Shown here: one piece after another, positions 4,101-52,775 of the stretch | Numbering within the stretch: position 1 is the first letter of the stretch | Layout: every line of letters starts with the position of its first letter | Origin: a virus | Lineage: Duplodnaviria > Caudoviricetes | Virus record (IMG/VR): IMGVR_UViG_3300027779_000038 | Coordinates: 1-53,700 of that record | Length of the DNA: 53,700 nucleotides | Reading direction: 5' to 3' (one strand) | Position numbers and translations under genes: made by a program | The notes under the pieces: model-generated | Told to the model about the DNA's origin: nothing | Seen by the model: only the letters and a program-made list of their open reading frames with translations | Database searches by the model: none

Positions 4101-4632
4101 TGCTAATATTCCACTTAAACCTGATGGTTCACCTGGAGAATTTAGTATAACATTTCAAGGTGGATTTATAAGTGAAACTTATAATTGGGATTACAGCCCA
4201 ACAGCAAATCCAGATAAACAATCATTCACTTTTATAGGACCATTTAGTTTAAGTGAAACTGGTATGATAACTGCAAAACCAAATATATCTAATGTTTCTA
4301 TTTCAGAACACCACGCAAGATGGTTTACGTTTAATATACAGAATAATACACGTACAATGCCTGGAACTGGACTTCCAACCCCTATTGAAACTATGTCGGC
4401 AAATTGTACTAGTAATTTTAACTCATGTTGGGAGGTTGCAGGTGATCCTAGATTCACATTAGATATATGCCAACCGATTTACGATACTCAACCTGAATTT
4501 ACTTGCAATGACCCTTCAAATGCAGGTGATGTCTACGAGGCAACTTTTGTGTGGAGGGATTGTGATACACAAACCGGTTGTGTTTGTGGGTCACTTGGTA
4601 ACAATGGTTCAGTAACTACTTGTGGGTGTTAA
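1168..4632 (+). CDS. Tail fibre / receptor-binding protein (1154 aa)
   Basis: T/G/S/N-rich. Contains YLRGDGTW and SAEYNQL...DQNTLYFV fibre motifs. First about 330 aa are paralogous to 4683..6251. Cys-rich variable C-terminus. Confidence 0.75.
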   Translation: MPQSFKYPQSILLLSDYIIGSDSSQENVTQNFKVNEVVATMLHALGIGTVKSISTASSDFIDTTGGIITNQGTISMALSATGLGATTAIKETQYLRGDGTWDITGAVAASTLKIQFNGLTLTDNVSSINFTGNSDATAADFNVAVDMPGVQDTLDSVVAGTAISINPTTGTGVVQIANNGAILAKAGGFITLSGGTGAVTVNTTKNAGTVTLVNQGIGIDLITNNTSNAGISVDYTGINNYIDVSEVIVPITEVDVVIYNQISSSNVKTTRIGVIDQSDLVLTKKDIDDNDAGSIKNSTDNNYEVSRTKNMVSCTSAEYNQLVVAGTTDQNTLYFVVSSGPAPEFTVIPSIVNNAGGVLGQDYNLIVSPSSVTNIVGTEYTFTVTLVLIGSFPRGTFSGENPQSFTDVIVGNLGSTYEKSLVFNGTYTPPALPVYISKLSISLLGSISANQHSDWQFKAAPNSQPGDESNNGIATNTGDFFYNPIVELINTNKHKFVTGEPKYQTEYDPIAIADESITPTLVSEPDYTSLGNFTGSRITQEAQGRQWFTGIFMDQNQTIQADYYLIQYSAALTVDVSNVTISGAGHGTPQYDWSIISSPVTNNQEAVINQNGGIIAEAITNLNDGSEFSWIDPAEPNLDPGYSWGSTPTYVFNPTGPQTISGGNNGSATLTITGAIIFTPPVAGQITFTLDSDAVQYSNGANSSDWSVCPSNNSSSGQAAKFAAYQVGPTGLPCNLSPLAPGPYINTRHYQYTWSSGPTLTMLAGDPPFMARTEAQGGMPYGDYPTIHYAEYKLTGTLVGPPTISFNTNVELVASPIVNTYHSPGTFTRVVAYQVTYQWGDSIENQYNENVEVTSVPAEDGPSQLTNSTTYDNMPTYNENPNKGKVKVLVNRISGGTLGAASNLVPFGGRVVVEFSSNNVLLDTVTVEQGQSVYDSAQYAYDNIVENVNPAYPLIQVKITETIFTAGKLIATLLRCGNANIPLKPDGSPGEFSITFQGGFISETYNWDYSPTANPDKQSFTFIGPFSLSETGMITAKPNISNVSISEHHARWFTFNIQNNTRTMPGTGLPTPIETMSANCTSNFNSCWEVAGDPRFTLDICQPIYDTQPEFTCNDPSNAGDVYEATFVWRDCDTQTGCVCGSLGNNGSVTTCGC

Positions 4633-32669: not shown

Positions 32670-32676
32670 TATTAAT

Positions 32677-32719
32677 GTAAAGACAAGGGTGTCGTTTGGC
32701 ACCCTTACTTTACTATTTT
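32677..32719 (+). terminator. Rho-independent terminator after the MCP gene
   Basis: GTAAAG-AC-AAGGGTGTC-gttt-GGCACCCTT-A-CTTTAC hairpin followed by TATTTT. Confidence 0.75.
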
Positions 32720-32741
32720 AACTATTTAATTATATTATATT

Positions 32742-33506
32742 ATGACAACAAAAACAAAAACTCAACAACAAGGTTGGGAAATAAAAGATAGAACATATTT
32801 AGTAAAAGGTGTTAATCAACCTTTAACTTTAAAAATACCATCAAGACACACAACTAAGCATGCTTTACTGTGGTTTGATGAAAAATTAAATGAGCAAAGA
32901 GAGATAAGATATGCTACAAACCAAAATTCACCATTTAAGGATGAACAAAAAGGTGAAGCCACTCTTGGTCATATAATATTTAAAGATGGTTCTTTGACAG
33001 TAAGAAAGAAAGAACAAGCTTTACAAAAAATACTATCATTATACCATCCTTTAAAAGGTAACAAGTATAATGAACTAAACGTTATAGAGGATGCTAAGGA
33101 TGAATTAGTAAATTTAGAATTAGAAATAGATGCTTTAAACATAGCTAGAGGTTTAGATGTTGACGAAGCAGAGGCAATATTAAGAGTTGAAATGGGATCT
33201 AAAGTATCAGAGATGAGTTCTAAGGAGATCAAAAGAGATTTACTTATGTTTGCTAAAGATAACGCAGAATTGTTTCTAAACTTAGCTAAAGATGATAATG
33301 TTCAATTAAGAAATTTTGCTATAAAAGCAACAGAGGCTGGAATTATTAAACTAGCTTCAGATCAAAAAACATTCCAATGGGCTACAAACGGTAAAAAGCT
33401 AATGACTGTACCTTTTGATGAACATCCATATGCTGCTATGGCTTCTTTCTTTAAAACAGATGAAGGTTTAGATATTTATAAATCAATAGAGAAAAAACTT
33501 TCTTAA
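32742..33506 (+). CDS. Conserved hypothetical protein downstream of MCP (254 aa)
   Basis: WEIKDRTY...REIRYATNQNSPF.DEQ...LGHIIF.DG.L; syntenic position within the head module. Confidence 0.75.
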   Translation: MTTKTKTQQQGWEIKDRTYLVKGVNQPLTLKIPSRHTTKHALLWFDEKLNEQREIRYATNQNSPFKDEQKGEATLGHIIFKDGSLTVRKKEQALQKILSLYHPLKGNKYNELNVIEDAKDELVNLELEIDALNIARGLDVDEAEAILRVEMGSKVSEMSSKEIKRDLLMFAKDNAELFLNLAKDDNVQLRNFAIKATEAGIIKLASDQKTFQWATNGKKLMTVPFDEHPYAAMASFFKTDEGLDIYKSIEKKLS

Positions 33507-33516
33507 TGTGTAATAC

Positions 33517-33547
33517 TAATAAGGGAGGTGTAATGCCTCCTTTATTA
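33517..33547 (+). terminator. Hairpin / probable terminator
   Basis: TAATAAGGGAGGT-gtaat-GCCTCCTTTATTA inverted repeat in the intergenic gap. Confidence 0.6.
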
Positions 33548-33562
33548 TAATAAAAATAACAA

Positions 33563-34342
33563 ATGGCTATATCCGTAAATACCGTATATCAAACGGTTTT
33601 ATTAATATTAAACAAAGAACAAAGAGGTTATATAACCCCTGAAGAGTTTAATAAAATTAGTAATCAAGTGCAACTTGAAATATTTGAAAAGTATTTTGAA
33701 GATATTAATCAGCAAATAAGAGTACCGCAAACCGATACAGATTATGCTGATAGGGTTGTTAATCTTGATGAAAAAATAGCTATATTTAAAACATTTGGTA
33801 ATGCTCTTCCAACAACCCTACCTGATGGTATAACAAACTATTGGAATCTTCCTGTTGTAGATGCATTTGGAAATGATGTTCAATCGACATCTAGTACGCC
33901 TTTTTATAGACTAGGTACCGTGTTGTATAATAATGAAATAGAAGTGGAGCGAATAGATCGTTCTGATTTTTATCATGTAAATAGTTCTTTACTTACTAAG
34001 CCTACAAAAACTTATCCAGTTTATTTATATGAAAACGAAAAATTATTTGTAAAACCTAATTCTATAAATAACCCAGGAGACATACAAATTGACTTTATAA
34101 GAAAACCGGCGCCACCAATTTGGGCTTTTAGCGTAGGTTCTTTAGGTCAATATATATTTAACTCAAACGTAAAGTCAGCTGCTTTGCCTAGTGGTCATGT
34201 TGATTTTGAACTTCACAAATCTGAACAAACTAGTTTAATAATAGAAATATTAATGTATGCTGGTATAATAATAAGAGATCCTCAAATAATACAAGCAGCA
34301 GCTCAAGAATCAGCTACAAATGAACAAAACTCAAAAAGTTAA
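33563..34342 (+). CDS. Tail ring / head-tail adaptor protein
   Basis: VNTVYQTVLLILNKEQRGYITPEEFN..., IDFIRKP..P.W, FELH.SE; crAss-like ring protein pattern and position. Confidence 0.7.
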   Translation: MAISVNTVYQTVLLILNKEQRGYITPEEFNKISNQVQLEIFEKYFEDINQQIRVPQTDTDYADRVVNLDEKIAIFKTFGNALPTTLPDGITNYWNLPVVDAFGNDVQSTSSTPFYRLGTVLYNNEIEVERIDRSDFYHVNSSLLTKPTKTYPVYLYENEKLFVKPNSINNPGDIQIDFIRKPAPPIWAFSVGSLGQYIFNSNVKSAALPSGHVDFELHKSEQTSLIIEILMYAGIIIRDPQIIQAAAQESATNEQNSKS

Positions 34343-34348
34343 TAAACT

Positions 34349-35587
34349 ATGGCAACACCTAATGGAGGTTTAATAACAGAAACTAACGCTCAGTATTTCA
34401 CCGGTACACAAGTAGTAATAGCAGTTAATCCAAGCGCGGGCGTAGGACAAACTGTTTTTAAAACCACTTTTAATACAGCACTTACTTTTGGTTCCAACGA
34501 CCCAACTAATCCTCTTTATAATAATAACAACTTTAGACTGTATACAAGCACATCTGGAGCCACGGGAACTTTTACCGAATATATACAATCCTATACCGTA
34601 TTAAATAGCATTATAACTTTAGCAGCCACAATTGCTGCTGGAACCTATGTTGTTATACAATTACTTAGTGAAAGTGGTGGAAAGTTTGGAAACAAAGATG
34701 CACTAGGCACTGTAGTGGAAGAAAACTATGCTAATTACCAATACATAAAAATAAAAGATGTAGTTAATAATTTTTTAGTAGCCTATGTTGGCACTGGTAA
34801 GCTTATTTCAAGTGTAAAACGAACAGATTTAATGTTTCATGCAAAAAGAGCTTTACAGGAATTTAGTTATGATACATTAAGAAGTATTCATTCTCAAGAA
34901 CTAAATATACCAGTAAACTTAAGTGTTCCTTTACCTCAAGACTATGTAAATTATGTTAACGTTTCGTGGGTTGACGCTCAAGGCATTAAACATATTATTT
35001 ATCCTACTACATTAACCTCAAATCCTTACACAAAACCTATACAAGACGCTCAAGGAATACCAACTCAAACAAACCAAGGAGAAAACATAACAGGAACATC
35101 TTTAATTGAGGCTCGTTGGGCTTCTAATAATCTTAATATAATTAATGAAATAAGAGACGATATTGTTGGTAGACTTATAGCGGATGGATTATATGGTTTT
35201 TATGGAGAGTCTTTAGCTTATGGTCAAAGATATGGCATGCAACCAGAAATTTCTCAGATTAATGGATGGTTTACTATAAATGAAAGAGAAGGTAAAATGT
35301 CTTTTTCTAGTGATTTACAAGATAAATTAATAATATTAGAATATATATCTGATGGTTTAGCTTATGATCAAGACATGCAGGTACCTAAGCTAGCAGAAGA
35401 AGCTATATATGCCTATATTATGCATGCGGTTTTAGCTAGTAGAATAAACCAGCCTGAGTATATAATACAAAGATTGCGTAAAGAAAAAAGTGCAAAATTA
35501 AGAAATGCTAAAATAAGATTATCTAACATTAAATCTAATGAGTTTATTCAGATTATGAGAGGTAAATCTAAGTGGATTAAATCATAA
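34349..35587 (+). CDS. Tail ring / tail tubular protein
   Basis: FHAKRALQEFSYD, LPQDYVNYV, ILEYISDGL, VPKLAEEAIYAYI...LRNAKIRLSN. Confidence 0.7.
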   Translation: MATPNGGLITETNAQYFTGTQVVIAVNPSAGVGQTVFKTTFNTALTFGSNDPTNPLYNNNNFRLYTSTSGATGTFTEYIQSYTVLNSIITLAATIAAGTYVVIQLLSESGGKFGNKDALGTVVEENYANYQYIKIKDVVNNFLVAYVGTGKLISSVKRTDLMFHAKRALQEFSYDTLRSIHSQELNIPVNLSVPLPQDYVNYVNVSWVDAQGIKHIIYPTTLTSNPYTKPIQDAQGIPTQTNQGENITGTSLIEARWASNNLNIINEIRDDIVGRLIADGLYGFYGESLAYGQRYGMQPEISQINGWFTINEREGKMSFSSDLQDKLIILEYISDGLAYDQDMQVPKLAEEAIYAYIMHAVLASRINQPEYIIQRLRKEKSAKLRNAKIRLSNIKSNEFIQIMRGKSKWIKS

Positions 35588-35592
35588 ATTAA

Positions 35593-38500
35593 ATGGCAGA
35601 AGTTAAAAACTCTTTCATTAAGTCTAAAATGAATAAAGACCTAGATGCTAGGTTGTTACCAAACGGCGAATATCGTGAAGGACTTAATATACAAGTAAGT
35701 AGATCAGAGGGTGCCGACGTTGGAGCGTTAGAAAATGTTTTAGGTAACGAAGAAATAGTTAATTTTAAAACAATAAGTGGTTGTAATCCTGTAACTAGTG
35801 GTGATTGTAATTTAAAAACAATAGGTGTATTTACAGATAAAGTAAATGATAATATTTATATATTTTTAACAGACTATACTGACTCAGGGTTTGAAACATC
35901 GATAACATATAATAATGAATCACATAATTATATTTATATACACAATGTATTAAGTAGAGAATCTAATTTATTATTAACTGGTTCTTTTTTAAACTTTTCT
36001 ACAACTAATCCTATTTATGGTATAAATATATTAGAAGGAGTGTTGTTTTGGACCGATAACAGAAATCAACCAAGAAAAATAGACGTAAGTAGGGCTTCTA
36101 CAAACTCAACAGAACAAACTTCTAATAATTATTACACAACTGAAGAACAAATTTCAGTTGCTACTTACAACCCTTATCAAACTATAGATTTATATTTTAA
36201 TAAATGGGGTAGTGGTGTTGTTAAATCTACTGTTACAGCTGGAACTACAATAAGTTTTGTTACAGATAGTTTAACAGGTATACCATCTGTAGGATCAAGT
36301 GTTGCAAAAGCTGATAACACGGTTATAGGGACCATACTATCTTTTAGTTCTTCCGGTAATTCTATTGTTGTAAGTGCAGCAACTACTTTATCCGTTGGTG
36401 ATGTTTTAAGATTTTTTGTTGCTAGTAATTTTGCCGCAAGTACTGCCACGCATTATTCAAGTATGTATAATGCTACTGATAAATTTGCAGCAGATGGCAC
36501 AACACTTAATCCTACTTTTCAAACAGCAGGACCGGATATTAATGGCAACACTGTAACCAATTATCCTGGTGATCCTGACTTTTTAAAAGATAAATTTGTA
36601 CGCTTTAGTTATAGATTTAAATTTGATGGAGGGGAAAATTCAATATTTGCTCCATTTACTCAACCTGCTTTTATACCTAAACAAGATGGTTATTTTTTAG
36701 ACAATGATTCAGCTCTTTCAGGTAATACAAAAGATGAAAATTCAACATATAGAAGTACTATTGTTGCTTTTATGGAAAATCAAGTAAATAACATATTACT
36801 TCAAATTCCACTACCTTGTCAAGCAAATGAACTTTATGATAAATTTAAAGTAATAGAAATTGATATTCTTTATAAAGAATCTGATGGTTTAGCTGTTCAA
36901 TTGGTAGATAAAATATCTAGAGATGGTATTGAAGGTTTTGAACAATTAGGTGGTACTGATAATGTAGTTGTTTACAACTATCAAGGCGATAAACCATATA
37001 GAACACTTCCCTCCGCTGACTTAATAAGAGTATTTGATAAGGTACCTGTTAGAGCTTACGGTCAAGAAATAATAGGTAATAGAATTGTATATAGTAATTT
37101 TCAAACACAACATACTCCTCCTGAATCTTTAAATTATAACGTAGGTATATATGATAAAAATGCTTTTTCATTAGCCACCAGCGATGATGAGGCAGTACCA
37201 AGCTCTAGTATAGTAGAATATCCTATGCATACTGTTAAACAAAACAGAAATTACCAAGTTGGTGTTGTTTTATCTGATAAGTTTGGTAGACAGTCAACAG
37301 TATTACTTTCTTCGGCTGTTGTACAAAATTTTGAATCTGGAAATATAAATGCTTTTGGTGGATCTACTGTTTATTTTCCTTATAGAAAAGATAAAGGAAC
37401 CACTAATAATGATATTAACTCTTGGCCCGGTGATTCAATAAAAATATTATTTAATCAAGCTATAGGCACCACTGGTATTTATGCTGGTAATGCTGCTAAT
37501 TTTATTAATGGATGGCCTGGTATTTACAATGGAGATATTACTAATGCTGATTATAATCCTTTAGGTTGGTATTCATATAAAGTTGTTATTAAACAGCAAG
37601 AACAAGAATACTATAACGTTTATTTACCAGGTATATTAAACGGTTATCCTAATAATCCAGCTACCCCACCAGACCCTCAAGATACTGTGGCTTTTATAAC
37701 TTTATTAGGTGATAATATAAATAAAGTTCCTAGAGACCTTACAGACGTGGGGCCGGTACAAGTACAGTTTAGAAGTTCAGTACCAATATTTGGTAGAGTA
37801 ACTCCTCAACAAACTGCACCTGGAACCGTTCCGGTATTCAATACGCAATTTTATCCTACTATAGAGCCTGATGTTGTTAATACTATAGGCGTAGAAGATA
37901 ATCTATTAGGAACAAATATTGCCTACAGTGACATTTATCAAACAGAAAGTAATCCAAACATGGGTAGGGTGTCTCAATCTTCAATCACTAATCCTATAGG
38001 CTCTGGTCCTTTAGCTAGTGGTACTTATAATTTTTTATTAGGTATATATGAAACAGCGCCAGTAGATTCAAGATTAAATATATTTTGGGAAACATCTACA
38101 TCTGGTCTTATATCTGATTTAAATTTAGCTATAGAGCAAGAAAGTCCAGGTATAAAAGGTTTTACAACTGCTCCTGGACAAAATACTACTTGGACTTATT
38201 CTCAAAATGAAAATATGACCACAGGCACTGGTGTTGCTAAGAATTTTTATCCTTATCAACAAACAGTAACAAATGGTCCTATGGTTCAAGTTGATAATTC
38301 TATAATTGATAATTGGTGGGTGGAAGATGGAGAAGGTGCTACTAGAACAAATGATTTTACTTTAACTAAACAAGAAGGCTCTCCAGATACATATACTATT
38401 TCCACAGCTAATACTTTTTATTTTGGTAGTAATGCTTCTACAAAAGAAAGTTATCAATTTTTCTTTGAAGTAATTAATGAAGATACTAGTATAATTAGTG

Positions 38501-43380: not shown

Positions 43381-45120
43381 ATGGCAGAACAAAGAAAATC
43401 TAGATATCAATCTAGAAATTTACCAAGATTTGGTAATAAAAAATATGATACAAAGATTTATGAACAAGGAGGACCTGACTTATCTTCTTTCACTAGGCAA
43501 CAAGGTAGAGACTTTGCTGCTATAACATCACAAGCTGCAGCTAATACTCAAAAAGCTTTTGATAATCTTGAAGCTCAAAAAACAGCTAGGCAAGAAAAAA
43601 GTCAAGCCTACATGGATTGGACTATGGCTTTTCAAATTCAAAACACAGATGCGGTTACTCAGTTAGTATCAAAGTCTGGAGCTAATAACCCTCAATTAGC
43701 AGAAGCTGCTATGTGGCAACTTGATGGACTTAACATGGCGGGTGAAGCTGCTAAAAGAGCTGAAACACCTGAAGAGCAAAGAATTGCATTAAAACAATTA
43801 CAAGGGTTTAAAACTAGAATTTCAAGTTTAGGTGTGAATATTGATCGTCAAAATATCTCTATAAAACAATTTGCAGAAGACGCTCAAGCTAGGTTACTTA
43901 ACACACAAGGGGGATTAAACTTAAATAGTCCAAAAGGGCTAGTATACGGAAAACAAATGGCAATTACCGTTGGTATGAATCCAGGTGAAATGACTTGGTT
44001 AGTAGACGAAGATGGTGATTGGGCTGTTAGGCATGATGGTCCTTTAATGGATGAACCTACAATAACTAAAGCTTCTACTTTTTTTGAAGAAGAACCAGGT
44101 ATAATACCAGAAAGCAATAAAGCTATTCAAAAAATAATGCAAGATAGTTTAGGTTTAATAGATGATAAAGGAAGAGTTATTGATGATTTTGTTTTAGGAA
44201 ATAAATCAAAGTTGGTTTCTATAGGTCAAGGAATGATGCAAGAACAAACAGTAACTAATGAAGCTCTTATTGCTCAAAGAATGCAACCATATCTTAAGTC
44301 TTATGCTTTAAGTTATGCTTCTAATTATGATACGGCTGAAGCTTATTGGGATAGTTTACCTGAAAATATAAGAACAGATGTTAGAAATTTAATGAAAGAG
44401 CAAGGGCTTGAAGATCCAGGTGATGATTTAACCCCAGGTTTAATAACAGTTGGTTCATCTTCTTTACAAGTAAATAAAAATTCTTGGTTTGCTATGGAAA
44501 ATGCTTTATACGCACAAGCTAAAGCAATGGTACCTAAGGTTAGAAAAGGTAGAATAATGCAAGATAAAAATTACATTAAATCTGGAAGTAGTTCTAATGG
44601 CTTAGGTGGTCAAAACGATATGTTTAGTATGTTGAAAAATATAGTTGATCTACCTCCACAGCAACAATTAGACATGTTAAAACTCAATGCTAATGATTCA
44701 CAGAGTTTTAAATATAACCCACCTAGCGCTAATGATTTAAAAATAAACCCTCAAGCAAAAGGAGTTATAACTATTGAAACAAAAAGAGATGCTAACATAG
44801 ATCCACCAAATCAAGAAAAAATGATTGGATTTGAAAATTCAGTAGGATTTATAAAAGGAGGAAGTCCAGGAGATGAAGGTTATGATGAACAAATTGCAAA
44901 TGCTAACATAATGGAAGTATTTAATTTAAGTGAACGTGATAGCAAGGGTGAAACTGGTGGATTAAATGCTTGGTATAATAGAATAGCTGATCTTTATTTA
45001 GGTAATACTGCTGCTGATAGAAAAGTTAGAGCACGATTTCAAGCATTTTTAACAGATGGAAGAGGTCAAGGAAACTCAAGTGCTCCTGCTGTTGAAAGAG
45101 GATTTTTAAATGTAAATTAA
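43381..45120 (+). CDS. Internal virion / DNA-ejection protein (middle, 579 aa)
   Basis: Helical Gln/Ala-rich N-half; located between the small and giant ejection-type genes. Confidence 0.6.
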   Translation: MAEQRKSRYQSRNLPRFGNKKYDTKIYEQGGPDLSSFTRQQGRDFAAITSQAAANTQKAFDNLEAQKTARQEKSQAYMDWTMAFQIQNTDAVTQLVSKSGANNPQLAEAAMWQLDGLNMAGEAAKRAETPEEQRIALKQLQGFKTRISSLGVNIDRQNISIKQFAEDAQARLLNTQGGLNLNSPKGLVYGKQMAITVGMNPGEMTWLVDEDGDWAVRHDGPLMDEPTITKASTFFEEEPGIIPESNKAIQKIMQDSLGLIDDKGRVIDDFVLGNKSKLVSIGQGMMQEQTVTNEALIAQRMQPYLKSYALSYASNYDTAEAYWDSLPENIRTDVRNLMKEQGLEDPGDDLTPGLITVGSSSLQVNKNSWFAMENALYAQAKAMVPKVRKGRIMQDKNYIKSGSSSNGLGGQNDMFSMLKNIVDLPPQQQLDMLKLNANDSQSFKYNPPSANDLKINPQAKGVITIETKRDANIDPPNQEKMIGFENSVGFIKGGSPGDEGYDEQIANANIMEVFNLSERDSKGETGGLNAWYNRIADLYLGNTAADRKVRARFQAFLTDGRGQGNSSAPAVERGFLNVN

Positions 45121-48100
45121 TGGAAGAATTATATACTATTTTAAACGAAAGAGGGGATTATGTTGGTAGTTTTGAAGAATTTGAAAAAGATTATGCTAAA
45201 GATAATTATAAAACTCTTCACAAAAAACTAGCTCAAGCTGAATATTATACAAATCCCTATGAGGATTTTGTTCAAGATTATAAACCAGTAAAGAGCTCAA
45301 CCACAACGCCGGATACGGTTGTGGAGACAGAAGAAATCGTGTCCGATCCTTTAAAATCTTCGGATACAGAATCTGCATTAGTAAGCAATGTAATAAGCAA
45401 AGTTACTCCTAAAGGTAAAGAAGACGAAGGTATATTTGCTTCAAGTTTAAGATCTTTTATGCAGGGATTAGAAGGCGTAGAACTAGGCCAAGAGTCAGCT
45501 GAATTAATGCAAGCTTTTGAAGACGGCACTTTATCTAAAAGAGATTATCAAGAATATATAGCAGCAAATAATAACGTACAAGATAATAAAGAAATTGCTA
45601 GTATTGGTCGATATGAAAAAGCATATTCACAATATATAGCAAAAGGTGAAAATGGAACCATAGCAACATTGAAAGCTTTATGGGATAATCCAGATGCTGG
45701 GTTTCCAATGGCTATGAATTCTATTGCAACTGTTGGTAGCGCTCCTTTTCTTTCGAAAGCAGTTGGAAAAGCAGCACTTAAATATGGCGCTGCTGGTGCT
45801 ACTGCTGGAGCGGGTGTTTCTGCTGCGGCTGGTGCTTTAGGTGGGCCAGTTGGAAGTGCCGTAGCTGGTCTCACTGGTGGTGTTTCAGGTGGAATTAATG
45901 GTTTAATGTTTGGTGCTATGAAACAACTTGAAACTCAATTGTTTTTTAGTGAAGAATTAAACAATGGAATTAAAGGTGAGCTAACAGAAGAAAAAATAAG
46001 TAGGTTTTTTAGCAATAAAAAAAATGTAGAAGAAATAATAAACAACGCTGAATTAAGAGGTATTGGTGTTGCTGCTATAGAAACAATGTTTAAAATGCTA
46101 CCTGTAAAAGCGGGTGGTGCAGCATTAAAAATGATAAGTAAACGAACCGGCGCTGGTGTTGCTGGCAAGGTTGTTGCTGTTGCAGGAGGAGCTGTTGCCG
46201 CAGCTGGAACAGAAGCAGCTGTAGGTATGACCGGTGAAGCTACTGGTATGATTATGTCAGGTAAAGAGCTTGATGCTAAACAAATAATTGAAGAAGGTAT
46301 TTTAGGTCCTTACGGTAAAGTTGTTGGGGTTGCTGGTTATATAGGAAAAGTAAGAATGATGCAAGATGAAGTTAAAGCTTCTAGTTTGTTAAAAAATTCT
46401 AACTTAGATTCAAGTGCAGCTAAAGCATTTGACCCAAATCTAAAAGTAGGAGAAGCTCAAGTTGGTATATCTAAACTTAAAAATGGTCAAAAAATAGTAG
46501 ACTACGAGGTAGATAGGATGGTTAATAGAAGTGACATATCAGAACAAGAAGGCAAAGATATAAAACAAAATTTTAGAGATGTACAGGGTGGCTCAAACAG
46601 ATTAAAAAGTTTAAAACTTGACAATGCGGCAGAAGCAGAGGCTATAAATAAATTAAGAATTATTAATAAGCTTAAGCAGGATATAAAAGAAATAGATAAT
46701 AAGGCTTTATCTGCACAAAAACAAGCACAATTAGATACATTAAATGAAGAATTAAACACAAGTGATAGTGAATTATTTAATGTTATTAAAAAAGACGCCG
46801 CACAAAAAGTAGAAAAAGATGTAAGTTTTGTAAAAAAAGCAGCAGAAGCATTAAAATTTAAAGTTGTAGATAATTTATCAACTACAGAAATATTACAAAA
46901 ATTTGGAAAAAAAGAAGCTGCCGCTAATGGATTTTTTAGAGATGGCACTATATATATAAACAAAGAAGTTGCTGCTGAAACAAGAGCCGTAACTGTTGGT
47001 AGTCACGAATTATTGCACGGTATATTAGCTAATGCAGCTAAAATAGATGAAAAAATAATTGAACAGTTTAAAAGTAAACTAACTGAAGATCAAATTAAGT
47101 TAGTTGATAAAAAACTTACAGATAATTATGAAGCTGATTATATAAAAGATAATCCTGATGAGTTTATAACACAATTTTCTGATCTTATAGCTGAAGATAA
47201 AATTAAATACAATGATACTTTAGGAACAATGTTATTAGATGTAGTAACTCCTATACTTAGAGCAGCTGGTTTTAAAAATATTAAGTTTGATAGTGGTGAA
47301 CAAATATATGATTTCATGCGAGAATACAGTAAAAGCATGAAGTCAGGTAATTTAAGTGGTGCTATAATAAAAGCAGTACCAGGTGGTGTTAAAATAAAAG
47401 ATACAAAAACTACTGAATCAAGATCTAAACGCTTTGATACTAAAGAAATATTAAGTACTAATACTGATACTATAAATGAATTAGCTACTGAAAATAAAAC
47501 TACTCCATTTAAACAAAACTCTACACAAGAAAAAGATTTATTAAGACAATATACTAATGTTGCTTTAAAAGCTTTAGGTTATAGAAAAGGAGCAGGTACT
47601 ATAGCGCCGCAAGAGGCGGTAAGCTTTGTTAATTCTAAGTTTAAAGGCATAATGAATAGGTTTAATCCTAAAGAATCTAAGTTTTCTACGTGGGTTACTA
47701 GTAATATTACTCCTAAACGAATGGAATTCTATGACAGTCAAATAGGTGATGCCGCTGTAACAACTAGCATAGATGATGAAAGAGCAGGTCAAATAGCGGA
47801 TATACCTACTGAAACTAAAACAAATAAAAAAAGAGATGTTAAGCCTACTACAAATCCTTTAAAATTATTTGGTTCAGATGATAAAGCTAGGGAGTCTTTT
47901 ATAAAAAATACTATAGATAAAATAAAAGAGCTAGGTTCATTAGATTTAATTAACTCTGTATTTGGCTTAGGTTTGCCTTCAAATATAGATAACTTAACAT
48001 ATAAAACATTAAAAACTTTAGACGAGCAGGGTATTGCAGATCTAACTGGTATACCTGTTAATAAAATATTTCAAAAAGCAGATAATTTAAATCAAGACGC

Positions 48101-51100
48101 TATAAACGCTTTGATGTATATTAATAAAAATGCTCAAGCAATATTAAACATGCTTCCTGATAGTCACACTGAAATAAAAAGTGTTGTATCAAAATCAAAT
48201 CCTAACAAAATGGTTAAGATTGGTGGAGAATCAACCGGTGTGCCTCAAAATGTTCTTAATAAATTTTATGATAAGGGCAAAAGAGTTGGTAATAACACAC
48301 AGTGGACAAAAAAACCAAACTTAACTGTTGAAAAGCTTAGGGATGAATTAGGTATGGAGGGCACTATTAAAGACCCTACATTTAAAGCTAGAACAAATAC
48401 ATCACAATCATTAAAAGGCATACTAGAATTAGTTGGTAGAGGTATGACTAATACTGTTGCTAGAAATTATTTAGAGTCTATAGGATATAACCCATTGGTT
48501 ATAAACAATATAGCAGAGGGTAAAAATCCTTCTATGTTTAGTACCACTAAAGTAAAAGAAATAAGTGGTATAAATATATTTCAGCAAGCTGCTTTAGAAT
48601 CTGCTAAAGATGATTTTAATAGTTTTAATACTTCATCTTGGAAACCTTTTTATGATAAAATGGGTGTTAGTCCTCTTGATCCTAGTAGTTGGGCTGATAA
48701 AATGGAAATGGTAGATTTCTTTCAAAAGGTTTTACCACAATATTTACCACAAGAAATAATAGCATTACTTGGACCTACTATGACAAATGGTCCTGCTAGT
48801 TATTACAAAGCTAATAGTGATAAATTTAATGAAGCTGCAAAAGCAAATCCTAAAAAATACCCTACACAAATATTAAACTCTAATGAAGAGTTAGTAAATA
48901 ATGACAAACTAAGAGCTGCTAGTAAAGAAAAGTTTGTATTAGAAGCACTAGGCATAAAAAATATTGATGAGACTGTAGATTATAAAAAAGCAGACTGGAG
49001 CAAAATAAGTAATAGTGAGTCTTTCTTTTTTAAAGATTCTAAACAGGCGGGCAATGAAGGAGCAAAATATCAAGCTAAAAAAGATCATAAAAGTCCAACT
49101 GTGTCTAAACAACAACTAGCAGACATGAAAGTTATGTTTTATAAGCAAGGTTTTACTTCTGGTAAAGGAAACAAAAGAACCGTACAGAATAAGTTTTTAG
49201 AAACATTATGGCAAAGCAACGAGCTTAAAGCGCAAAACGCAGCTAAGTTAAGAGGTTTAAAGGCTATGTTTGAAGTGTTTGAACAAATGATGAAAGATGA
49301 TTCTAAAAATGCTAAATATATCATTGGTATTTTATCTAAAACTAGTGGTCATCAAAATGGTTTTGTTAGAGTTTCAGCTCCTATGAAGTTTATAGCTAAA
49401 AATATACTTGGTGTAGAGATAGTAGAAGAACACACACTACCAGCTTCTTTAGCTGCTAAATATTTATTTCAACAAGCCGTTAGTGGAACAGTTAATAAAA
49501 ACTTCAAAGGTATAGAAAGAAATTACATGCAAGGTATTTTATCTAAACTTGATGATAATAAATTAAAAGGTATAGGTATTGATGGAAAACCTTTTAATTA
49601 CATAAAAAGTACCCCAGAAGGTTTTACTTTAAATGATAATATATGGGCTAGGTATTTTAATCTTAATGTAGCTACTATTGAAAACGGATTTGGTATTGAT
49701 CCTAATAATTTAGAATTAGAAACAGGTAAAACTGTTGCAGAAACTTTTGGTGTAAATAATGCTGGTGCGGATATTGCAGGTATAAAAAGTGTTGAAAGAC
49801 TTAAAGCGGAATACAATAAAAAAATAGGTCCTGCTATTGTACCTCAAGAAGTACAAGAAGAATCGTTATATAGTAAGTCACCTAAATTTTCTACTAGTGA
49901 AATATTAAATAATTTTAATTTAATTGATAAGTTTAATAATAAACAAGAATCAAATTTTACTAATTCATTGAGTCTTGATAAAGATTTTAACGATATAATT
50001 GAAAATAAAACTGGTATTGCATCAGAAAAAACATACTCTAAAGTTAAAGCAGAAGTAGTAGGCTCTAGTAAAGGTAAGTTTGATTGGTTTATACCACCAT
50101 CAGCTGAAGATTTTGTAGGTTTATTATATAAAACACTAGGTAAGGGTAAAATAGGTGATAGTCAAATGGCTTGGTATAAAGCTCATTTATTAAATCCATT
50201 TTCAAGAGCAATGGATAATATATCAAGATCTAGAGTTGCGCTTGGTAATGATTTTAAAGCTCTTAAAAATAAATTAAATGTTGTACCTAAAACATTAAAG
50301 AAAAAATTACCTGGTGAAAATTTTACACAAGAACAAGCTATTAGAGTTTACATATGGAATAAGCAAGGTACAAATATTCCAGGTATGTCTGAAACAGATA
50401 TAAAAGAACTTAAAAATTTTATAGAAAATAATAATGAATTAAGATCTTTTGCAGATGAACTAATGCAACTACAAAAAGGTGATCAATATGCAAAACCTAG
50501 CGAAAGTTGGTTAGCTGGTAATATTACTACAGACTTAATGGAAGGTATTAATACTATTAAAAGAGCTAAGTTTTTAGAGCAATGGCAACAAAACGTTGAT
50601 AAAATATTTACCGAAGCTAATTTAAACAAACTAGAGGCTGCTTATGGTAAGTCTTATCGTAATGCTTTAGAAAGTAGTTTACAAAGAATGAAAACTGGTA
50701 AAAACAGATCATTTGGCGGTGATACTTTAACAGGTAGAGTTACAGACTGGTTAACAAACTCTATTGGTGCTATTATGTTTTTTAACACTAGATCAGCTGT
50801 ACTTCAAACTATATCAGCAATTAACTTTATAAACTTTGGAGATAATAATATATATGCAGCTGGTAAAGCTTTTGCTAATCAAAAACAATATTGGTCTGAT
50901 TTTAAGAAATTATTTAACTCAGACTTTTTAGTTGAAAGACGTGATGGTTTAAAACTTAACGTAAACGAAGCTGATATAGCCGAAATGGCTAAAAAAGGTG
51001 GACCAAAAGGGGTTATTGCTGGTTTACTTAGATTAGGATTTTTACCTACACAAATAGCAGATAGTTTTGCTATAGCTTCAGGAGGTTCTACTTTTTATAG

Positions 51101-51956
51101 AAACAGATTGGAAGCTTTAGAAAAACAAGGTATGTCTAAAAAAGATGCTGAAACTCAGGCTTTTCAAGATTTTAGAGAGACCGCAGAAGAATCTCAGCAG
51201 TCTAGTAGACCTGATAGAATTAGTCAACAACAAGCTGGTCCGCTAGGGCGTATTATACTAGCCTTTGCTAACACTCCAGCTCAGTATGCTAGATTAATAA
51301 AAAAAGCTGCTATTGATCTTAAGAATCGGCGAGGTGATGCTAAAACAAACATATCTAAAATAATATACTATGGTATTGCACAGAATTTAATATTTAATGC
51401 TATGCAGCAAGCTTTGTTTGCTTTAGCTTTTGAAGATGAAGATGAAGATGAAAAAGAAAAAAGAGCTGTTAACGTAGCTAACGGTATGGCTGATAGTGTT
51501 CTACGTGGTACAGGACTTGCTGGTGCTGTTGTTTCAGTGTTAAAAAATGTAGCTTTAAGATTAAATCAAGAATCAGGTAAAAAATCGCCTAAGTATCAAG
51601 ATGTGTTACAAAAAGAGATTTTACAAATATCACCACCTATATCTTCTAAAGTAGGTAAATTAAGATCAGCGGGTCGGTCATTCTCATGGAATAAAAAAGA
51701 TATGATGACAAAAGGTTGGTCTATTGAAAATCCAGCATATCTTGCTGCCGGTCAAATAATAGCCGCAACAACTAACGTTCCTTTAGATAGAGTAATTAAG
51801 AAAATAAATAATATTAAAAATTCAAGTGATTCAAAACTACAGGTTTGGCAAAGAATAGCATCTTTAGCTGGTTGGTCTGAGTGGGAGCTTGGTATACAAA
51901 AATCTAAACAAAGAAAAACTAAAATAAAAAAATATAAAGTTAAAAAAAGAGTTTAA
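45120..51956 (+). CDS. Giant multidomain internal virion / ejection protein (2278 aa)
   Basis: Gly/Ala hydrophobic segments at about aa 200-400; zincin HELLH (47004-47018); sigma-like segment; EEHTLP domain; conserved C-terminal helical region (MFFNTRSAVLQTIS, QQSSRPDRISQQQ, LAFANTPAQY). Confidence 0.8.
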   Translation: MEELYTILNERGDYVGSFEEFEKDYAKDNYKTLHKKLAQAEYYTNPYEDFVQDYKPVKSSTTTPDTVVETEEIVSDPLKSSDTESALVSNVISKVTPKGKEDEGIFASSLRSFMQGLEGVELGQESAELMQAFEDGTLSKRDYQEYIAANNNVQDNKEIASIGRYEKAYSQYIAKGENGTIATLKALWDNPDAGFPMAMNSIATVGSAPFLSKAVGKAALKYGAAGATAGAGVSAAAGALGGPVGSAVAGLTGGVSGGINGLMFGAMKQLETQLFFSEELNNGIKGELTEEKISRFFSNKKNVEEIINNAELRGIGVAAIETMFKMLPVKAGGAALKMISKRTGAGVAGKVVAVAGGAVAAAGTEAAVGMTGEATGMIMSGKELDAKQIIEEGILGPYGKVVGVAGYIGKVRMMQDEVKASSLLKNSNLDSSAAKAFDPNLKVGEAQVGISKLKNGQKIVDYEVDRMVNRSDISEQEGKDIKQNFRDVQGGSNRLKSLKLDNAAEAEAINKLRIINKLKQDIKEIDNKALSAQKQAQLDTLNEELNTSDSELFNVIKKDAAQKVEKDVSFVKKAAEALKFKVVDNLSTTEILQKFGKKEAAANGFFRDGTIYINKEVAAETRAVTVGSHELLHGILANAAKIDEKIIEQFKSKLTEDQIKLVDKKLTDNYEADYIKDNPDEFITQFSDLIAEDKIKYNDTLGTMLLDVVTPILRAAGFKNIKFDSGEQIYDFMREYSKSMKSGNLSGAIIKAVPGGVKIKDTKTTESRSKRFDTKEILSTNTDTINELATENKTTPFKQNSTQEKDLLRQYTNVALKALGYRKGAGTIAPQEAVSFVNSKFKGIMNRFNPKESKFSTWVTSNITPKRMEFYDSQIGDAAVTTSIDDERAGQIADIPTETKTNKKRDVKPTTNPLKLFGSDDKARESFIKNTIDKIKELGSLDLINSVFGLGLPSNIDNLTYKTLKTLDEQGIADLTGIPVNKIFQKADNLNQDAINALMYINKNAQAILNMLPDSHTEIKSVVSKSNPNKMVKIGGESTGVPQNVLNKFYDKGKRVGNNTQWTKKPNLTVEKLRDELGMEGTIKDPTFKARTNTSQSLKGILELVGRGMTNTVARNYLESIGYNPLVINNIAEGKNPSMFSTTKVKEISGINIFQQAALESAKDDFNSFNTSSWKPFYDKMGVSPLDPSSWADKMEMVDFFQKVLPQYLPQEIIALLGPTMTNGPASYYKANSDKFNEAAKANPKKYPTQILNSNEELVNNDKLRAASKEKFVLEALGIKNIDETVDYKKADWSKISNSESFFFKDSKQAGNEGAKYQAKKDHKSPTVSKQQLADMKVMFYKQGFTSGKGNKRTVQNKFLETLWQSNELKAQNAAKLRGLKAMFEVFEQMMKDDSKNAKYIIGILSKTSGHQNGFVRVSAPMKFIAKNILGVEIVEEHTLPASLAAKYLFQQAVSGTVNKNFKGIERNYMQGILSKLDDNKLKGIGIDGKPFNYIKSTPEGFTLNDNIWARYFNLNVATIENGFGIDPNNLELETGKTVAETFGVNNAGADIAGIKSVERLKAEYNKKIGPAIVPQEVQEESLYSKSPKFSTSEILNNFNLIDKFNNKQESNFTNSLSLDKDFNDIIENKTGIASEKTYSKVKAEVVGSSKGKFDWFIPPSAEDFVGLLYKTLGKGKIGDSQMAWYKAHLLNPFSRAMDNISRSRVALGNDFKALKNKLNVVPKTLKKKLPGENFTQEQAIRVYIWNKQGTNIPGMSETDIKELKNFIENNNELRSFADELMQLQKGDQYAKPSESWLAGNITTDLMEGINTIKRAKFLEQWQQNVDKIFTEANLNKLEAAYGKSYRNALESSLQRMKTGKNRSFGGDTLTGRVTDWLTNSIGAIMFFNTRSAVLQTISAINFINFGDNNIYAAGKAFANQKQYWSDFKKLFNSDFLVERRDGLKLNVNEADIAEMAKKGGPKGVIAGLLRLGFLPTQIADSFAIASGGSTFYRNRLEALEKQGMSKKDAETQAFQDFRETAEESQQSSRPDRISQQQAGPLGRIILAFANTPAQYARLIKKAAIDLKNRRGDAKTNISKIIYYGIAQNLIFNAMQQALFALAFEDEDEDEKEKRAVNVANGMADSVLRGTGLAGAVVSVLKNVALRLNQESGKKSPKYQDVLQKEILQISPPISSKVGKLRSAGRSFSWNKKDMMTKGWSIENPAYLAAGQIIAATTNVPLDRVIKKINNIKNSSDSKLQVWQRIASLAGWSEWELGIQKSKQRKTKIKKYKVKKRV
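45288..45345 (+). promoter_or_regulatory. Putative -1 programmed ribosomal frameshift signal (A_AAG, 7-nt spacer, H-type pseudoknot)
   Basis: Stem 1 CCACAAC(45301-07)/GTTGTGG(45318-24); stem 2 CGGATACG(45310-17)/CGTGTCCG(45338-45); the -1 frame stays open for 39 codons to TAA 45410-12. Confidence 0.7.
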
Positions 51957-51957
51957 T

Positions 51958-52335
51958 ATGGAAAATGAAAAAAAAGAAATGCGTCATTACATCGGTGCGG
52001 CCGGTATATTTACTTTAATCATATTATTATTAATGTTTTTAAGTTATGTAGAAATACCACCAGTTAATAAAGACTTATTCGTGGCGATCGTGGGAACTTT
52101 AGTTTCCAGTTTAGGAATCGTCGTTTATGTCATAATTGGACAACAGCCGGATGAAGTTACTAAATTACAAAAGAAAAACGAGTCATTAGAATCAATAACT
52201 CATCAAATGGAAAAACGTAATGATCAACTTGAAGAAATGATCATTGAAATGCAAGCAAAGATGATACAAAAATTAACTTTTTTTGGTGATCAATGTTCTT
52301 GCGGGAAAGATAATTGTGATTGTAAAACTAAATAA
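51958..52335 (+). CDS. Two-TM membrane protein with coiled coil and Cys-rich tail (possible lysis accessory)
   Basis: Two hydrophobic helices, a heptad region and a CSCGKDNCDC end; lies upstream of the endolysin. Confidence 0.65.
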   Translation: MENEKKEMRHYIGAAGIFTLIILLLMFLSYVEIPPVNKDLFVAIVGTLVSSLGIVVYVIIGQQPDEVTKLQKKNESLESITHQMEKRNDQLEEMIIEMQAKMIQKLTFFGDQCSCGKDNCDCKTK

Positions 52336-52341
52336 CTAAAT

Positions 52342-52422
52342 ATGACATCAAATGAAATTACTATAGTAATATTGATTGTTATTATAGTTGGTTTTTTAGT
52401 TGGAATTAAACTAAATAAATAA
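52342..52422 (+). CDS. 26-aa single-TM peptide (MTSNEITIVILIVIIVGFLVGIKLNK)
   Basis: Not in the ORF track; TAATG-coupled to the endolysin start. Confidence 0.5.
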   Translation: MTSNEITIVILIVIIVGFLVGIKLNK

Positions 52423-52775
52423 TGCAATATTTTAACATAACAGAATTTGATAGTCCAGATCACCTAGGTAGTGGTAAGGCTATGAAGCAGCATGTATTAG
52501 ATATGTTGGATGAAGCTCGTGGAAAGTTTGACAAAGCTATAGTTATAACCTCAGGTTATAGAACTAAATCTCATAATGAGAAAGTTGGTGGAGTAAAAAA
52601 TAGCGCTCACCTTGGTGGATGGGCTGCTGATATTTCTTGTAGAACTTCAAGAGATAGATATCATTTAGTAAATTGCTTACTAGACGTTGGGTTTAATCGT
52701 ATAGGGGTAGCGGGTACATTTATTCATGTTGACGCAGACCCAGATAAAGACCCAGACATAATGTGGACATATTAA
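52422..52775 (+). CDS. Peptidase M15A-family endolysin (Zn peptidase)
   Basis: ITSGYRT..HN..VGG...SAH..G.AADI...GF.RIGV...FIHVD. Confidence 0.88.
   Translation: MQYFNITEFDSPDHLGSGKAMKQHVLDMLDEARGKFDKAIVITSGYRTKSHNEKVGGVKNSAHLGGWAADISCRTSRDRYHLVNCLLDVGFNRIGVAGTFIHVDADPDKDPDIMWTY

What the first reader, a model, noticed from the sequence alone, without database searches (positions are those of the whole stretch)
45288..45412. A_AAG plus H-type pseudoknot: -1 frameshift making a 97-aa isoform of the 2278-aa ejection protein
Seen: codons 57-58 are GTA AAG. Seven nt later a GC-rich island folds as a classic H-type pseudoknot: 7-bp stem 1 (CCACAAC/GTTGTGG), 2-nt loop 1, 8-bp stem 2 with one G-U (CGGATACG/CGTGTCCG), no loop 2, and a 13-nt A-rich loop 3. 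A -1 slip gives ...YKPVK-ELNHNAGYGCGDRRNRVRSFKIFGYRICISKQCNKQSYS* (58+39 aa). The 0 frame here is an acidic low-complexity linker right after a small N-terminal domain. Known: tRNA-Lys slippage on A_AAG stimulated by a pseudoknot drives IS3 transposase frameshifting. Phage frameshifts are best known in tail-assembly chaperones and capsid genes, not in ejection proteins. Inference: the signal sets the ratio of a short N-domain isoform with a basic, amphipathic beta tail to the giant protein, possibly controlling how many copies are packaged.
Basis: partly seen in the sequence, partly recalled or inferred. Interest (0 to 1): 0.85.

Follow-up and report, generated by a model that had tools for sequence, protein, structure and literature searches.

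The report
Conserved frameshift signal in giant phage gene
Near the start of a giant virion-protein gene of a marine flavobacterial phage lies a slippery site plus RNA pseudoknot that very likely makes some ribosomes shift frame and produce a short 97-residue protein, and the same signal recurs in dozens of related phages.

Summary
The window has GTA AAG (A_AAG), a 7-nt spacer, an H-type pseudoknot and a 39-codon -1 frame. That frame opens only two codons before the slip codon and has no start codon.

Of 113 non-redundant relatives of the giant gene with complete 5' ends, 60 carry a cassette at the same place. It consists of a slip motif (G_GGA_AAG 21, A_AAG 19, A-run 12, G_GGA_AAA/C 5, A_AAA_AAG 3), a -1 frame open for 25-50 codons, and a conserved -1 peptide (YGIxxGRWFFG).

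The pseudoknot covaries: 80% of cells are paired against 25-50% when slid, and 13 of 19 pairs show double changes. Substitutions in the tail peak at -1-frame third positions. Seventeen database ORFs encode an N-domain plus the tail in a single frame.

Caveat: in the window's own clade the tail motif has diverged to FKIFGYRIC, and a profile of the other tails does not detect it.

The mechanism is canonical -1 frameshifting. The gene class and the short product are new. The product's function and the shift efficiency are untested.

The parts
45120..51956 (+). Giant gene (2278 aa, P0001), 0 frame. It is the last gene of the virion module and lies before the lysis genes.
   Evidence: Upstream genes hit PHROG virion structural families. 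An M15 peptidase lies downstream.
45120..45290 (+). Codons 1-57: a small N-terminal domain shared by both products. In relatives it is replaced by at least four other unrelated small domains.
45281..45283 (+). TAA in the -1 frame. This is the 5' limit of the -1 reading frame, two codons before the slip codon.
   Evidence: The family median is 4 codons, and 1 of 64 cassettes has any start codon there.
45287..45293 (+). Shift site A_GUA_AAG. The A-site tRNA-Lys slips from AAG to AAA (A_AAG).
   Evidence: It is identical in L001, L056 and L123 although the upstream domains differ.
45294..45300 (+). 7-nt spacer.
   Evidence: Among family members with a pseudoknot <= -20, spacers are mostly 6 or 7 nt, with two of 5 and three of 10.
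45301..45324 (+). Stem 1 (45301-07 with 45318-24). It encloses loop 1 (45308-09) and the 5' arm of stem 2 (45310-17).
   Evidence: Covariation is shown (columns 18-27 with 38-44).
45325..45337 (+). Loop 3, 13 nt, A-rich.
45338..45345 (+). 3' arm of stem 2. It pairs with 45310-17.
   Evidence: columns 30-37 with 67-74.
45290..45412 (+). -1 reading frame of the tail: K plus 39 residues, then TAA.
   Evidence: Its open length lies in the top 0.18% for this gene.
45347..45376 (+). Tail residues SFKIFGYRIC, the part conserved within the window's own clade. No synonymous change is seen here against L056.

Best explanation
This is a programmed -1 ribosomal frameshift signal.

Mechanism:
- A ribosome with tRNA-Lys on AAG (codon 58) is held up by the pseudoknot, which begins 7 nt downstream.
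- In a fraction of passages the tRNA re-pairs with the overlapping AAA.
- The ribosome then reads 39 further codons in the -1 frame and stops.
- The product is a 97-aa protein: the 57-residue N-terminal domain, Lys, and a basic, aromatic tail.
- Ribosomes that do not slip make the 2278-aa protein.

The signal is one form of a portable cassette found at the start of giant virion-protein genes in many marine Flavobacteriia podoviruses.

Shown here: the anatomy, conservation of the site, covariation of both stems, a coding signature in the -1 frame across the family, and natural genes that encode the fused product in one frame.

Inferred: that shifting happens, how efficient it is, and that the short protein is functional in this particular clade. 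Possible roles are an assembly or anchoring partner, or a means of setting its ratio to the giant protein.
For: (1) Site and geometry fit known bacterial -1 signals. [quoted passage not shown]

(2) Close relatives keep GTA AAG and both stems although their upstream domains are unrelated (L001, L056, L123). Stem 1 position 6 runs A-U (window), G.U (L001), G-C (L056).

(3) Window against L056, codons 58-87: differences at codon positions 1/2/3 are 9/10/4. In the 30-codon windows covering codons 53-92, 0 of 13 and 1 of 14 unchanged codons differ synonymously. In the windows from codon 83 to 242 the rate is 0.21-0.75.

(4) Family counts: 60 of 113 non-redundant genes carry a slip motif, a -1 run of at least 25 codons and the tail motif. 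After the slip codon the -1 frame stays open for 25-47 codons in 35 genes, against null medians of 3-6.

(5) Covariation on a structure-blind MAFFT alignment of 34 sequences:
- 80.1% of cells paired, against 25-50% when slid;
- 13 of 19 pairs with changes on both sides;
- 90 such cells against a shuffled mean of 32 (0 of 500 shuffles reach it);
- covariation score 0.418 against at most 0.157 when slid.
A second pseudoknot type in 6 G_GGA_AAA sequences has 100% of 78 cells paired, against 19-49% when slid.

(6) A strict pseudoknot (<= -20) follows 14 of 19 N_NNA_AAG sites and 11 of 20 G_GGA_AAG sites. It follows 0 of 14 A-run sites. The background is 0.65% of anchors.

(7) Tail diversity at 0-frame positions 1/2/3 is 0.306/0.568/0.352 on a frame-blind alignment, so it peaks at the -1 wobble position.

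(8) The -1 frame opens a median of 4 codons before the slip codon, and 1 of 64 cassettes has a start codon there.

(9) Seventeen predicted proteins of 58-101 aa carry an N-domain fused in frame to the tail (E from 4.7e-10 to 7e-4).
Against: - No protein or ribosome data exist, so shifting is inferred.
- In the window alone, the slip site plus pseudoknot is only modestly improbable, and the nested fold is ordinary.
- A profile of the other clades' tails does not detect the window's tail. By nucleotide homology the GRWFFG half is replaced by ISKQCNK, and the -1 frame ends at different points in the four clade members (31, 32, 30 and 39 codons).
- Window against L001 shows an ordinary 0-frame substitution pattern in the overlap (0.125/0.077/0.179), although differences are few.
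- About 40 of the 113 relatives lack the cassette, so it is dispensable.
- The 17 in-frame ORFs each sit on 1-2 contigs. I did not see their DNA, so some may be indel errors.
- The 34 sequences were 34 of 64 unique cassettes, chosen because they shared the GGATGC-type core.
- A-site-only A_AAG slippage depends on the host's tRNA-Lys set, which is unknown here.
- The AlphaFold2 model of the tail has low confidence.
Confidence: 0.85

Rival explanations
1. The pseudoknot is real but serves another purpose, such as pausing translation after the N-domain, mRNA stability, or regulating downstream translation. Any -1 product would then be noise. The conserved nucleotides would reflect RNA structure plus the 0-frame linker.
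For: The Cys-rich first half of the -1 peptide overlaps the stems, so its conservation could be a by-product of structure. In the pseudoknot part all three codon positions vary alike (0.434/0.45/0.373). The window clade's tail has lost the family motif.
Against: - The tail motif lies 3' of stem 2 and varies mainly at -1 wobble positions.
- The -1 frame stays open exactly through the motif in 64 unique cassettes.
- Canonical slip motifs sit 5-7 nt before stem 1.
- In-frame N-domain-tail ORFs exist.
Confidence: 0.07
2. In the window's own clade the cassette is a decaying relic. Ribosomes may still shift, but the 97-aa product no longer has the ancestral function. The effect would be merely to lower output of the giant protein.
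For: No profile hit for the window's tail. The -1 stop positions vary among window, L001, L056 and L123. Many relatives lack the cassette altogether.
Against: Four clade members with three different N-domains keep GTA AAG, both stems and R[VI]R.F.IFGYRIC. Synonymous change is nearly absent in the overlap.
Confidence: 0.06
3. Chance co-occurrence of AAAG, two complementary stretches and an open -1 frame in a Thr/Pro/Asp/Val-rich linker. On this view no signal exists.
For: About 0.7 AAAG sites with an equally good pseudoknot are expected per window. The MFE z-score is -1.21.
Against: Covariation and conservation across dozens of genomes.
Confidence: 0.01
4. The -1 product arises from transcriptional slippage (extra A in the mRNA) and not from ribosomal slippage.
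For: Twelve of the 60 strict cassettes in relatives replace the heptamer with an A-run. The runs I read are 10 to 12 A long, and none of 14 unique A-run cassettes has a pseudoknot. A passage of PMC5009743 states that runs of 9 A or T cause slippage in bacteria. Phage Panino has A9 where A10 would restore the fusion.
Against: The window has only three A at the site, far too few, and it carries the pseudoknot that ribosomal shifting needs.
Confidence: 0.01

Closest known systems
IS3 transposase frameshift (C_CA(A)_AAG plus downstream pseudoknot)
   Same: A single-tRNA A_AAG slip of tRNA-Lys, stimulated by a 3' pseudoknot, on bacterial ribosomes (passages of PMC5009743).
   Different: In IS3 the shift joins two ORFs into a longer transposase. 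Here the shift ends translation early and gives a short isoform. The gene is a phage virion gene, not a mobile-element gene.
E. coli dnaX tau/gamma (A_AAA_AAG)
   Same: A -1 shift inside a long ORF yields a truncated second product. Some relatives here use A_AAA_AAG (3 of 60). As with dnaX, different lineages reach the same product by ribosomal or, probably, transcriptional slippage (PMC5009743 passages).
   Different: The dnaX shift lies two-thirds of the way along the gene and adds one codon, and its stimulators are a stem-loop and an SD-like element. Here the shift is at codon 58 of 2278, adds a conserved 30-45-aa tail, and uses a pseudoknot.
Phage lambda gpG/gpGT tail assembly chaperone frameshift (G_GGA_AAG)
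   Same: A dsDNA-phage morphogenesis-module gene, and the same heptamer in 21 of 60 relatives. A fixed ratio of two products sharing an N-terminus is the accepted rationale (PMC5009743 passage). That lambda uses G_GGA_AAG is my recollection.
   Different: In lambda the shift extends the protein near the 3' end of a short gene. Here it truncates a giant protein near its 5' end. The window itself has A_AAG, not the heptamer. There is no tape-measure context (podovirus relatives).
Thermus thermophilus dnaX / IS-element transcriptional slippage on A runs
   Same: It resembles the A-run members of this family and the A9 state of phage Panino.
   Different: It does not apply to the window, which has only AAA.

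Membership tests
Programmed -1 ribosomal frameshift signal | A slippery sequence on which the tRNA(s) can re-pair in the -1 frame. | tested here: met
   A_AAG at 45290-93 in frame. It is kept in L001, L056 and L123. Relatives use G_GGA_AAG, A_AAA_AAG or G_GGA_AAA/C at the same place.
Programmed -1 ribosomal frameshift signal | A 3' stimulatory RNA structure 5-9 nt downstream, supported by covariation. | tested here: met
   7-nt spacer and an H-type pseudoknot. 80.1% of cells paired against 25-50% when slid, and 13 of 19 pairs with double changes.
Programmed -1 ribosomal frameshift signal | A -1 frame that is open, reachable only through the site, and shows a coding signature. | tested here: met
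   39 codons open, in the top 0.18% for this gene. An upstream -1 stop lies 2 codons away and there is no start codon. The family tail varies at -1 wobble positions. The window clade's own tail is diverged, so the evidence at clade level is weaker.
Programmed -1 ribosomal frameshift signal | A trans-frame protein observed, and a measured efficiency. | not testable with these tools
   No proteomic or reporter data were available. The Panino paper contains neither 'mass spectrometry' nor 'frameshift'.
Tail assembly chaperone G/GT-type frameshift | The shift near the 3' end of a short chaperone gene extends it into the next ORF, upstream of a tape-measure gene. | tested here: not met
   The shift is at codon 58 of a 2278-codon gene and truncates the product. 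The relatives are podoviruses.
Transcriptional slippage site | A homopolymer run of about 9 or more A/T. | tested here: not met
   The window has AAA only. The feature is met in the A-run relatives.
Polyvalent (LPD-domain) virion proteins / ejection proteins | Recognisable LPD or effector domains, or virion or ejection evidence. | tested here: inconclusive
   - No Pfam or PHROG family for P0001.
- A weak ATLF/HExxH hit at E 0.11.
- The ESM Atlas gives a lead to LPD38/LPD39 clusters, at low recognition.
- Two relatives carry Zeta-toxin/AAA Pfam domains.
- Its position in the virion module.
Rfam families | A match at gathering score. | tested here: not met
   The best matches score 13.6-18.5 bits, against gathering scores of 44-93.

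The most novel reading that the evidence does not exclude
The cassette is a portable recoding module that has been moved behind at least five unrelated small N-terminal domains. It is kept alive through interchangeable slip devices: A_AAG, G_GGA_AAG or A_AAA_AAG with a pseudoknot, or a bare A10-12 run using polymerase slippage. Its purpose would be to make, from each giant virion-protein gene, a fixed share of a small 'N-domain plus beta-hairpin tail' protein. That protein would act as the assembly or anchoring partner (or copy-number governor) of the giant, probably ejected, protein. In some lineages the two products have been resolved into separate ordinary genes.
Probability: 0.35. Interest if true: 0.85.

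Novelty: new member of a known kind. Interest (0 to 1): 0.72.

Why it matters
Phage frameshifts are textbook cases in tail chaperone and capsid genes. This would add a large, well-conserved class in a different kind of gene: the giant, unannotated virion proteins of abundant marine Flavobacteriia phages. At least 578 relatives are present in IMG/VR.

It would give:
- a natural series of slip sites and covarying pseudoknots for studying recoding in Bacteroidota, where Shine-Dalgarno-type stimulators are not expected (my recollection);
- a hidden small protein with a conserved tail that annotation pipelines miss;
- a handle on how giant virion proteins are dosed or assembled;
- a cultured test system, Maribacter phage Panino, whose giant gene appears mis-started at exactly this cassette.

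My three literature searches listed no paper describing this signal, judged from the listed titles and abstract starts, and neither did the passages I read in PMC5009743, PMC10885494 and PMC11590407.

Tried and rejected
- Nested MFE folding of 45285-45350 is uninformative for a pseudoknot.
- Searches of cultured phages with the giant protein found nothing: blastn of 44800-46800, tblastn of the whole protein, of its C-terminus, and of a relative's N-terminus.
- Pfam, PHROGs and PDB sequence searches of P0001 gave no family.
- A pattern scan of IMG/VR for the pseudoknot core returned only the contigs of L001 and L020.
- The single metagenome scan added only P0003's contig (L056) and a duplicate of L001.
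- A profile of the other clades' tails did not detect the window's tail.
- RNAalifold on the six G_GGA_AAA sequences proposed a nested long-range helix. I re-read it as stem 2 of a pseudoknot and counted that structure separately. It was derived from these same sequences, so the count leans in its favour.
- A scan with P0016 for in-frame N-domain-tail genes in IMG/VR found frameshifted cassettes and an unrelated GC-rich group that shares only the N-domain. It found no in-frame copy.
- No standalone ORF with the tail motif occurs in any frame of the loci held.
- AlphaFold2 of the tail had low confidence, so I made no fold search.
- P0001 and the Panino giant protein show no BLASTP similarity, so only the cassette and synteny link them.
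- A first codon alignment of L056 used a start that was one base off (L056 part). I discarded it and redid it.
- Rows dropped: L024 and L030 (5' ends uncertain) from the count, and five 5'-incomplete or short genes (L081, L092, L102, L126, L127).
- received 34 of the 64 unique cassettes. Left out were the 14 A-run sequences, six G_GGA_AAA/N sequences (L009, L014, L017, L021, L024, L043), and L007, L008, L022, L047, L094, L096, L107, L134, L136 and L138.
Full report
**Observation.** The window is a 53.7-kb virus record, estimated 83% complete. ORF 45120..51956 (+) encodes 2278 aa.
- Codons 57-58 are GTA AAG.
- Seven bases later come CCACAAC / GC / CGGATACG / GTTGTGG / 13 A-rich bases / CGTGTCCG. 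This is an H-type pseudoknot with a 7-bp stem 1, a 2-nt loop 1, an 8-bp stem 2 (one G-U) and no loop 2.
- The -1 frame from 45290 reads K ELNHNAGYGCGDRRNRVRSFKIFGYRICISKQCNKQSYS and stops at 45410-12.
- I add that the -1 frame is closed by TAA at 45281-83, two codons before the slip codon, and contains no start codon. It can be entered only at this spot.

**Chance in the window alone.**
- A nested fold is unremarkable (z = -1.21).
- With a simple search for two contiguous helices in H-type arrangement, the site scores -28.7.
- 15 of 26,800 anchors on the + strand score <= -28 and 36 score <= -25.
- Of 496 AAAG sites, only this one has a pseudoknot <= -25. About 0.7 would be expected.
- The 39-codon open -1 run is matched by 0.18% of in-frame positions of the gene.
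- Alone, this is suggestive and no more.

**What the gene is.**
- P0001 has no Pfam or PHROG family and no relative among solved structures.
- Upstream genes hit PHROG 'virion structural protein' families.
- Downstream lie a small coiled-coil ORF and an M15 peptidase.
- A capsid-module protein matches podoviruses of Flavobacterium, Cellulophaga and Maribacter at 41-51% identity.
- The giant protein has no tblastn match in cultured phages.
- 'Ejection protein' is therefore a guess. Leads only: an HELLH motif with a weak ATLF hit (E 0.11), an ESM Atlas lead to LPD38/LPD39 clusters, and Zeta-toxin/AAA domains on two relatives.

**Close relatives.** L001 (85% aa identity), L056 (P0003's contig) and L123 all keep GTA AAG, the spacer and both stems. 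L056 and L123 each have a different, unrelated N-terminal domain.
- Stem 1 position 6 is A-U in the window, G.U in L001 and G-C in L056.
- Stem 2 changes keep pairing through G.U or A-U. Two terminal pairs are lost.
- Their -1 tails share G[YC]GCG...R[VI]R.F.IFGYRIC.
- Window against L056, codons 58-87: differences at codon positions 1/2/3 are 9/10/4. The two 30-codon windows covering codons 53-92 show 0 of 13 and 1 of 14 synonymous differences among unchanged codons. The windows from codon 83 to 242 show 0.21-0.75.
- Window against L001 is too similar to be informative and shows an ordinary pattern.

**The family.** Two scans of IMG/VR gave 52 and 80 loci. The second reported 578 confirmed relatives and kept the best 80.
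- Among 113 non-redundant genes with complete 5' ends, 60 meet strict criteria. The criteria are a -1 run of at least 25 codons in the first 220 codons, containing an in-frame slip motif and the tail motif.
- Slip classes: G_GGA_AAG 21, A_AAG alone 19, A-run 12, G_GGA_AAA/C 5, A_AAA_AAG 3.
- About a dozen more are near misses of my regular expression. About 40 have nothing.
- After the slip codon the -1 frame stays open for 25-47 codons in 35 genes, with null medians of 3-6.
- The -1 frame opens a median of 4 codons before the slip codon, and in 1 of 64 unique cassettes it holds a start codon.
- The cassette follows at least five unrelated N-domains.

**The pseudoknot is real.**
- MAFFT, blind to structure, aligned 34 cassettes. 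On the window's pairing scheme, extended outward by four pairs, 80.1% of 638 cells pair, against 25-50% with partners slid.
- 13 of 19 pairs show changes on both sides. 90 such cells compare with a shuffled mean of 32 (0 of 500 shuffles reach it). The covariation score is 0.418 against at most 0.157.
- Stem 2 alternates GGATGC/GCATCC with GGGTGC/GCACCC. Stem 1 is 5-11 bp of largely different sequence.
- These 34 were chosen from 64 because they share that core, which is a selection to bear in mind.
- Six G_GGA_AAA cassettes have a different pseudoknot with the same 6-nt spacer: 100% of 78 cells paired against 19-49% slid, with two compensatory pairs. I drew that structure from the same sequences.
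- By the strict finder, a pseudoknot <= -20 follows 14 of 19 N_NNA_AAG, 11 of 20 G_GGA_AAG and 1 of 3 A_AAA_AAG sites, but 0 of 14 A-run sites. The background is 0.65%.
- The A-run members read (10-12 A) therefore probably use polymerase slippage, or tandem ribosomal slippage without a structure. A passage of PMC5009743 says runs of 9 A suffice in bacteria.

**The -1 frame is translated.**
- The tails share YG[IV]x[IL]G[RK][WY]F[FI]G, 3' of stem 2.
- In a motif block of 16 sequences, pairwise differences at -1 codon positions 1/2/3 are 0.263/0.144/0.532. The Gly codon uses all four third bases while the 0-frame residue flips among D, V, G and A. This block was selected on the -1 peptide, so the test is partly circular.
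- Frame-blind nucleotide alignments give the same answer. In groups A, D and E the overlap varies most at 0-frame position 2, and downstream this flips to position 3.
- In the 34-sequence set the tail part gives 0.306/0.568/0.352.
- A profile of 44 tails, searched against 1.84 billion proteins, found 17 predicted proteins of 58-101 aa in which an N-domain is fused in frame to the tail (E from 4.7e-10 to 7e-4).
- Their junctions differ. Some are at the slip site. Others lie downstream or carry deletions that remove the pseudoknot. That pattern argues against simple read errors, but each sits on 1-2 contigs and I could not see the DNA.
- AlphaFold2 gives the tail a beta-hairpin at low confidence (pLDDT 55).

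**Against, for this window.**
- A profile built without the window's clade does not detect its tail.
- By nucleotide homology the second half of the motif is replaced (ISKQCNK for GRWFFG), and the -1 stop moves among clade members.
- The clade has its own conserved FKIFGYRIC with almost no synonymous change. I therefore read it as a diverged, still constrained form, and keep 'relic' as a rival.

**Cultured relative.**
- In Maribacter phage Panino the syntenic giant CDS, annotated 'tRNA methyltransferase', starts at a GTG just after an A9 run.
- An N-domain ORF upstream is out of frame with it, and the tail motif lies in the giant's -1 frame. One more A would recreate the metagenomic arrangement.
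- The Panino paper has no occurrence of 'frameshift' or 'mass spectrometry'.
- Panino encodes tRNA-Lys(UUU), tRNA-Val(UAC) and tRNA-Gly(UCC).

**Comparison with known systems.**
- The mechanism is that of bacterial -1 frameshifting. Passages of PMC5009743 cover A_AAG and G_GGA_AAG shiftiness in E. coli, IS3's C_CA(A)_AAG with a pseudoknot, dnaX's truncated product, and lambda G/GT ratio setting.
- It is not a tail-chaperone frameshift, not an IS element, and matches no Rfam family.
- Three literature searches and passages of PMC10885494 gave no description of it. For the other listed papers I saw only the search listings. Supplements were closed.

**Verdict.** This is a real, conserved -1 frameshift cassette (confidence 0.85). 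The mechanism is canonical. The gene class is new, and the short conserved product is hidden from ordinary annotation. The product's role and the frameshift efficiency remain to be measured.

Noticed in passing
L139:31574-31800 (Maribacter phage Panino, PP540027): An A9 run at 31716-31724 separates an N-domain ORF (from 31574) from the annotated giant CDS (31756-37245, 'tRNA methyltransferase', GTG start). One extra A would fuse them, as in metagenomic relatives with A10-A12. The tail motif (…WFIGFF…GGGWFFGISRK) lies in the giant's -1 frame. Whether this is a homopolymer error or real slippage is unresolved.
   Followed up: partly
Proteins P0015-P0031: Seventeen predicted proteins of 58-101 aa carry an N-domain and the tail motif in one frame, with different junctions. 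P0020 has the tail motif in frame with giant-like downstream sequence. Each sits on 1-2 contigs, and I did not see the DNA.
   Followed up: partly
Window 45120-45290 and the 5' ends of the giant genes in L003-L138: At least five unrelated small N-terminal domains precede the same cassette. This suggests domain shuffling upstream of a fixed recoding module. One of them (…IVQRMIDAGEPEENI…) also heads large ORFs in GC-rich phages that lack the cassette (L151-L159).
   Followed up: partly
Window about 47010-47150 (P0001 residues about 630-678): An HELLH (HExxH) motif, conserved in relatives, with a sub-threshold Pfam hit to the anthrax lethal factor N/C-terminal domain family (E 0.11). It may be a zincin-like peptidase module.
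   Followed up: no
Window 45770-45890 and 46130-46250: GC-rich islands (0.52-0.60 against about 0.3) that encode Gly/Ala-rich hydrophobic stretches of the giant protein, possibly membrane-active segments.
   Followed up: no
Window about 4489-4495, 16621-16625, 45821-45827: Three other places score as well as the finding in my helix-sum pseudoknot scan (-28.3 to -28.9). None follows an AAAG site with a score <= -25.
   Followed up: no
Window 51958-52335 and 52422-52775: A small coiled-coil/TM-like ORF, then a Peptidase_M15_3 protein (E 6.6e-18), directly after the giant gene. This is a likely lysis cassette.
   Followed up: no
L139:37200-40100: Panino's tRNA block includes tRNA-Lys(UUU), tRNA-Val(UAC) and tRNA-Gly(UCC). 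These are the tRNAs that read the family's slip-site codons AAA/AAG, GUA and GGA. This may simply reflect AT-rich codon usage.
   Followed up: no
P0005, P0006: Two relatives of the giant protein carry precomputed Zeta-toxin (PF06414) and AAA_33 (PF13671) domains. This fits a modular, effector-carrying virion protein.
   Followed up: no
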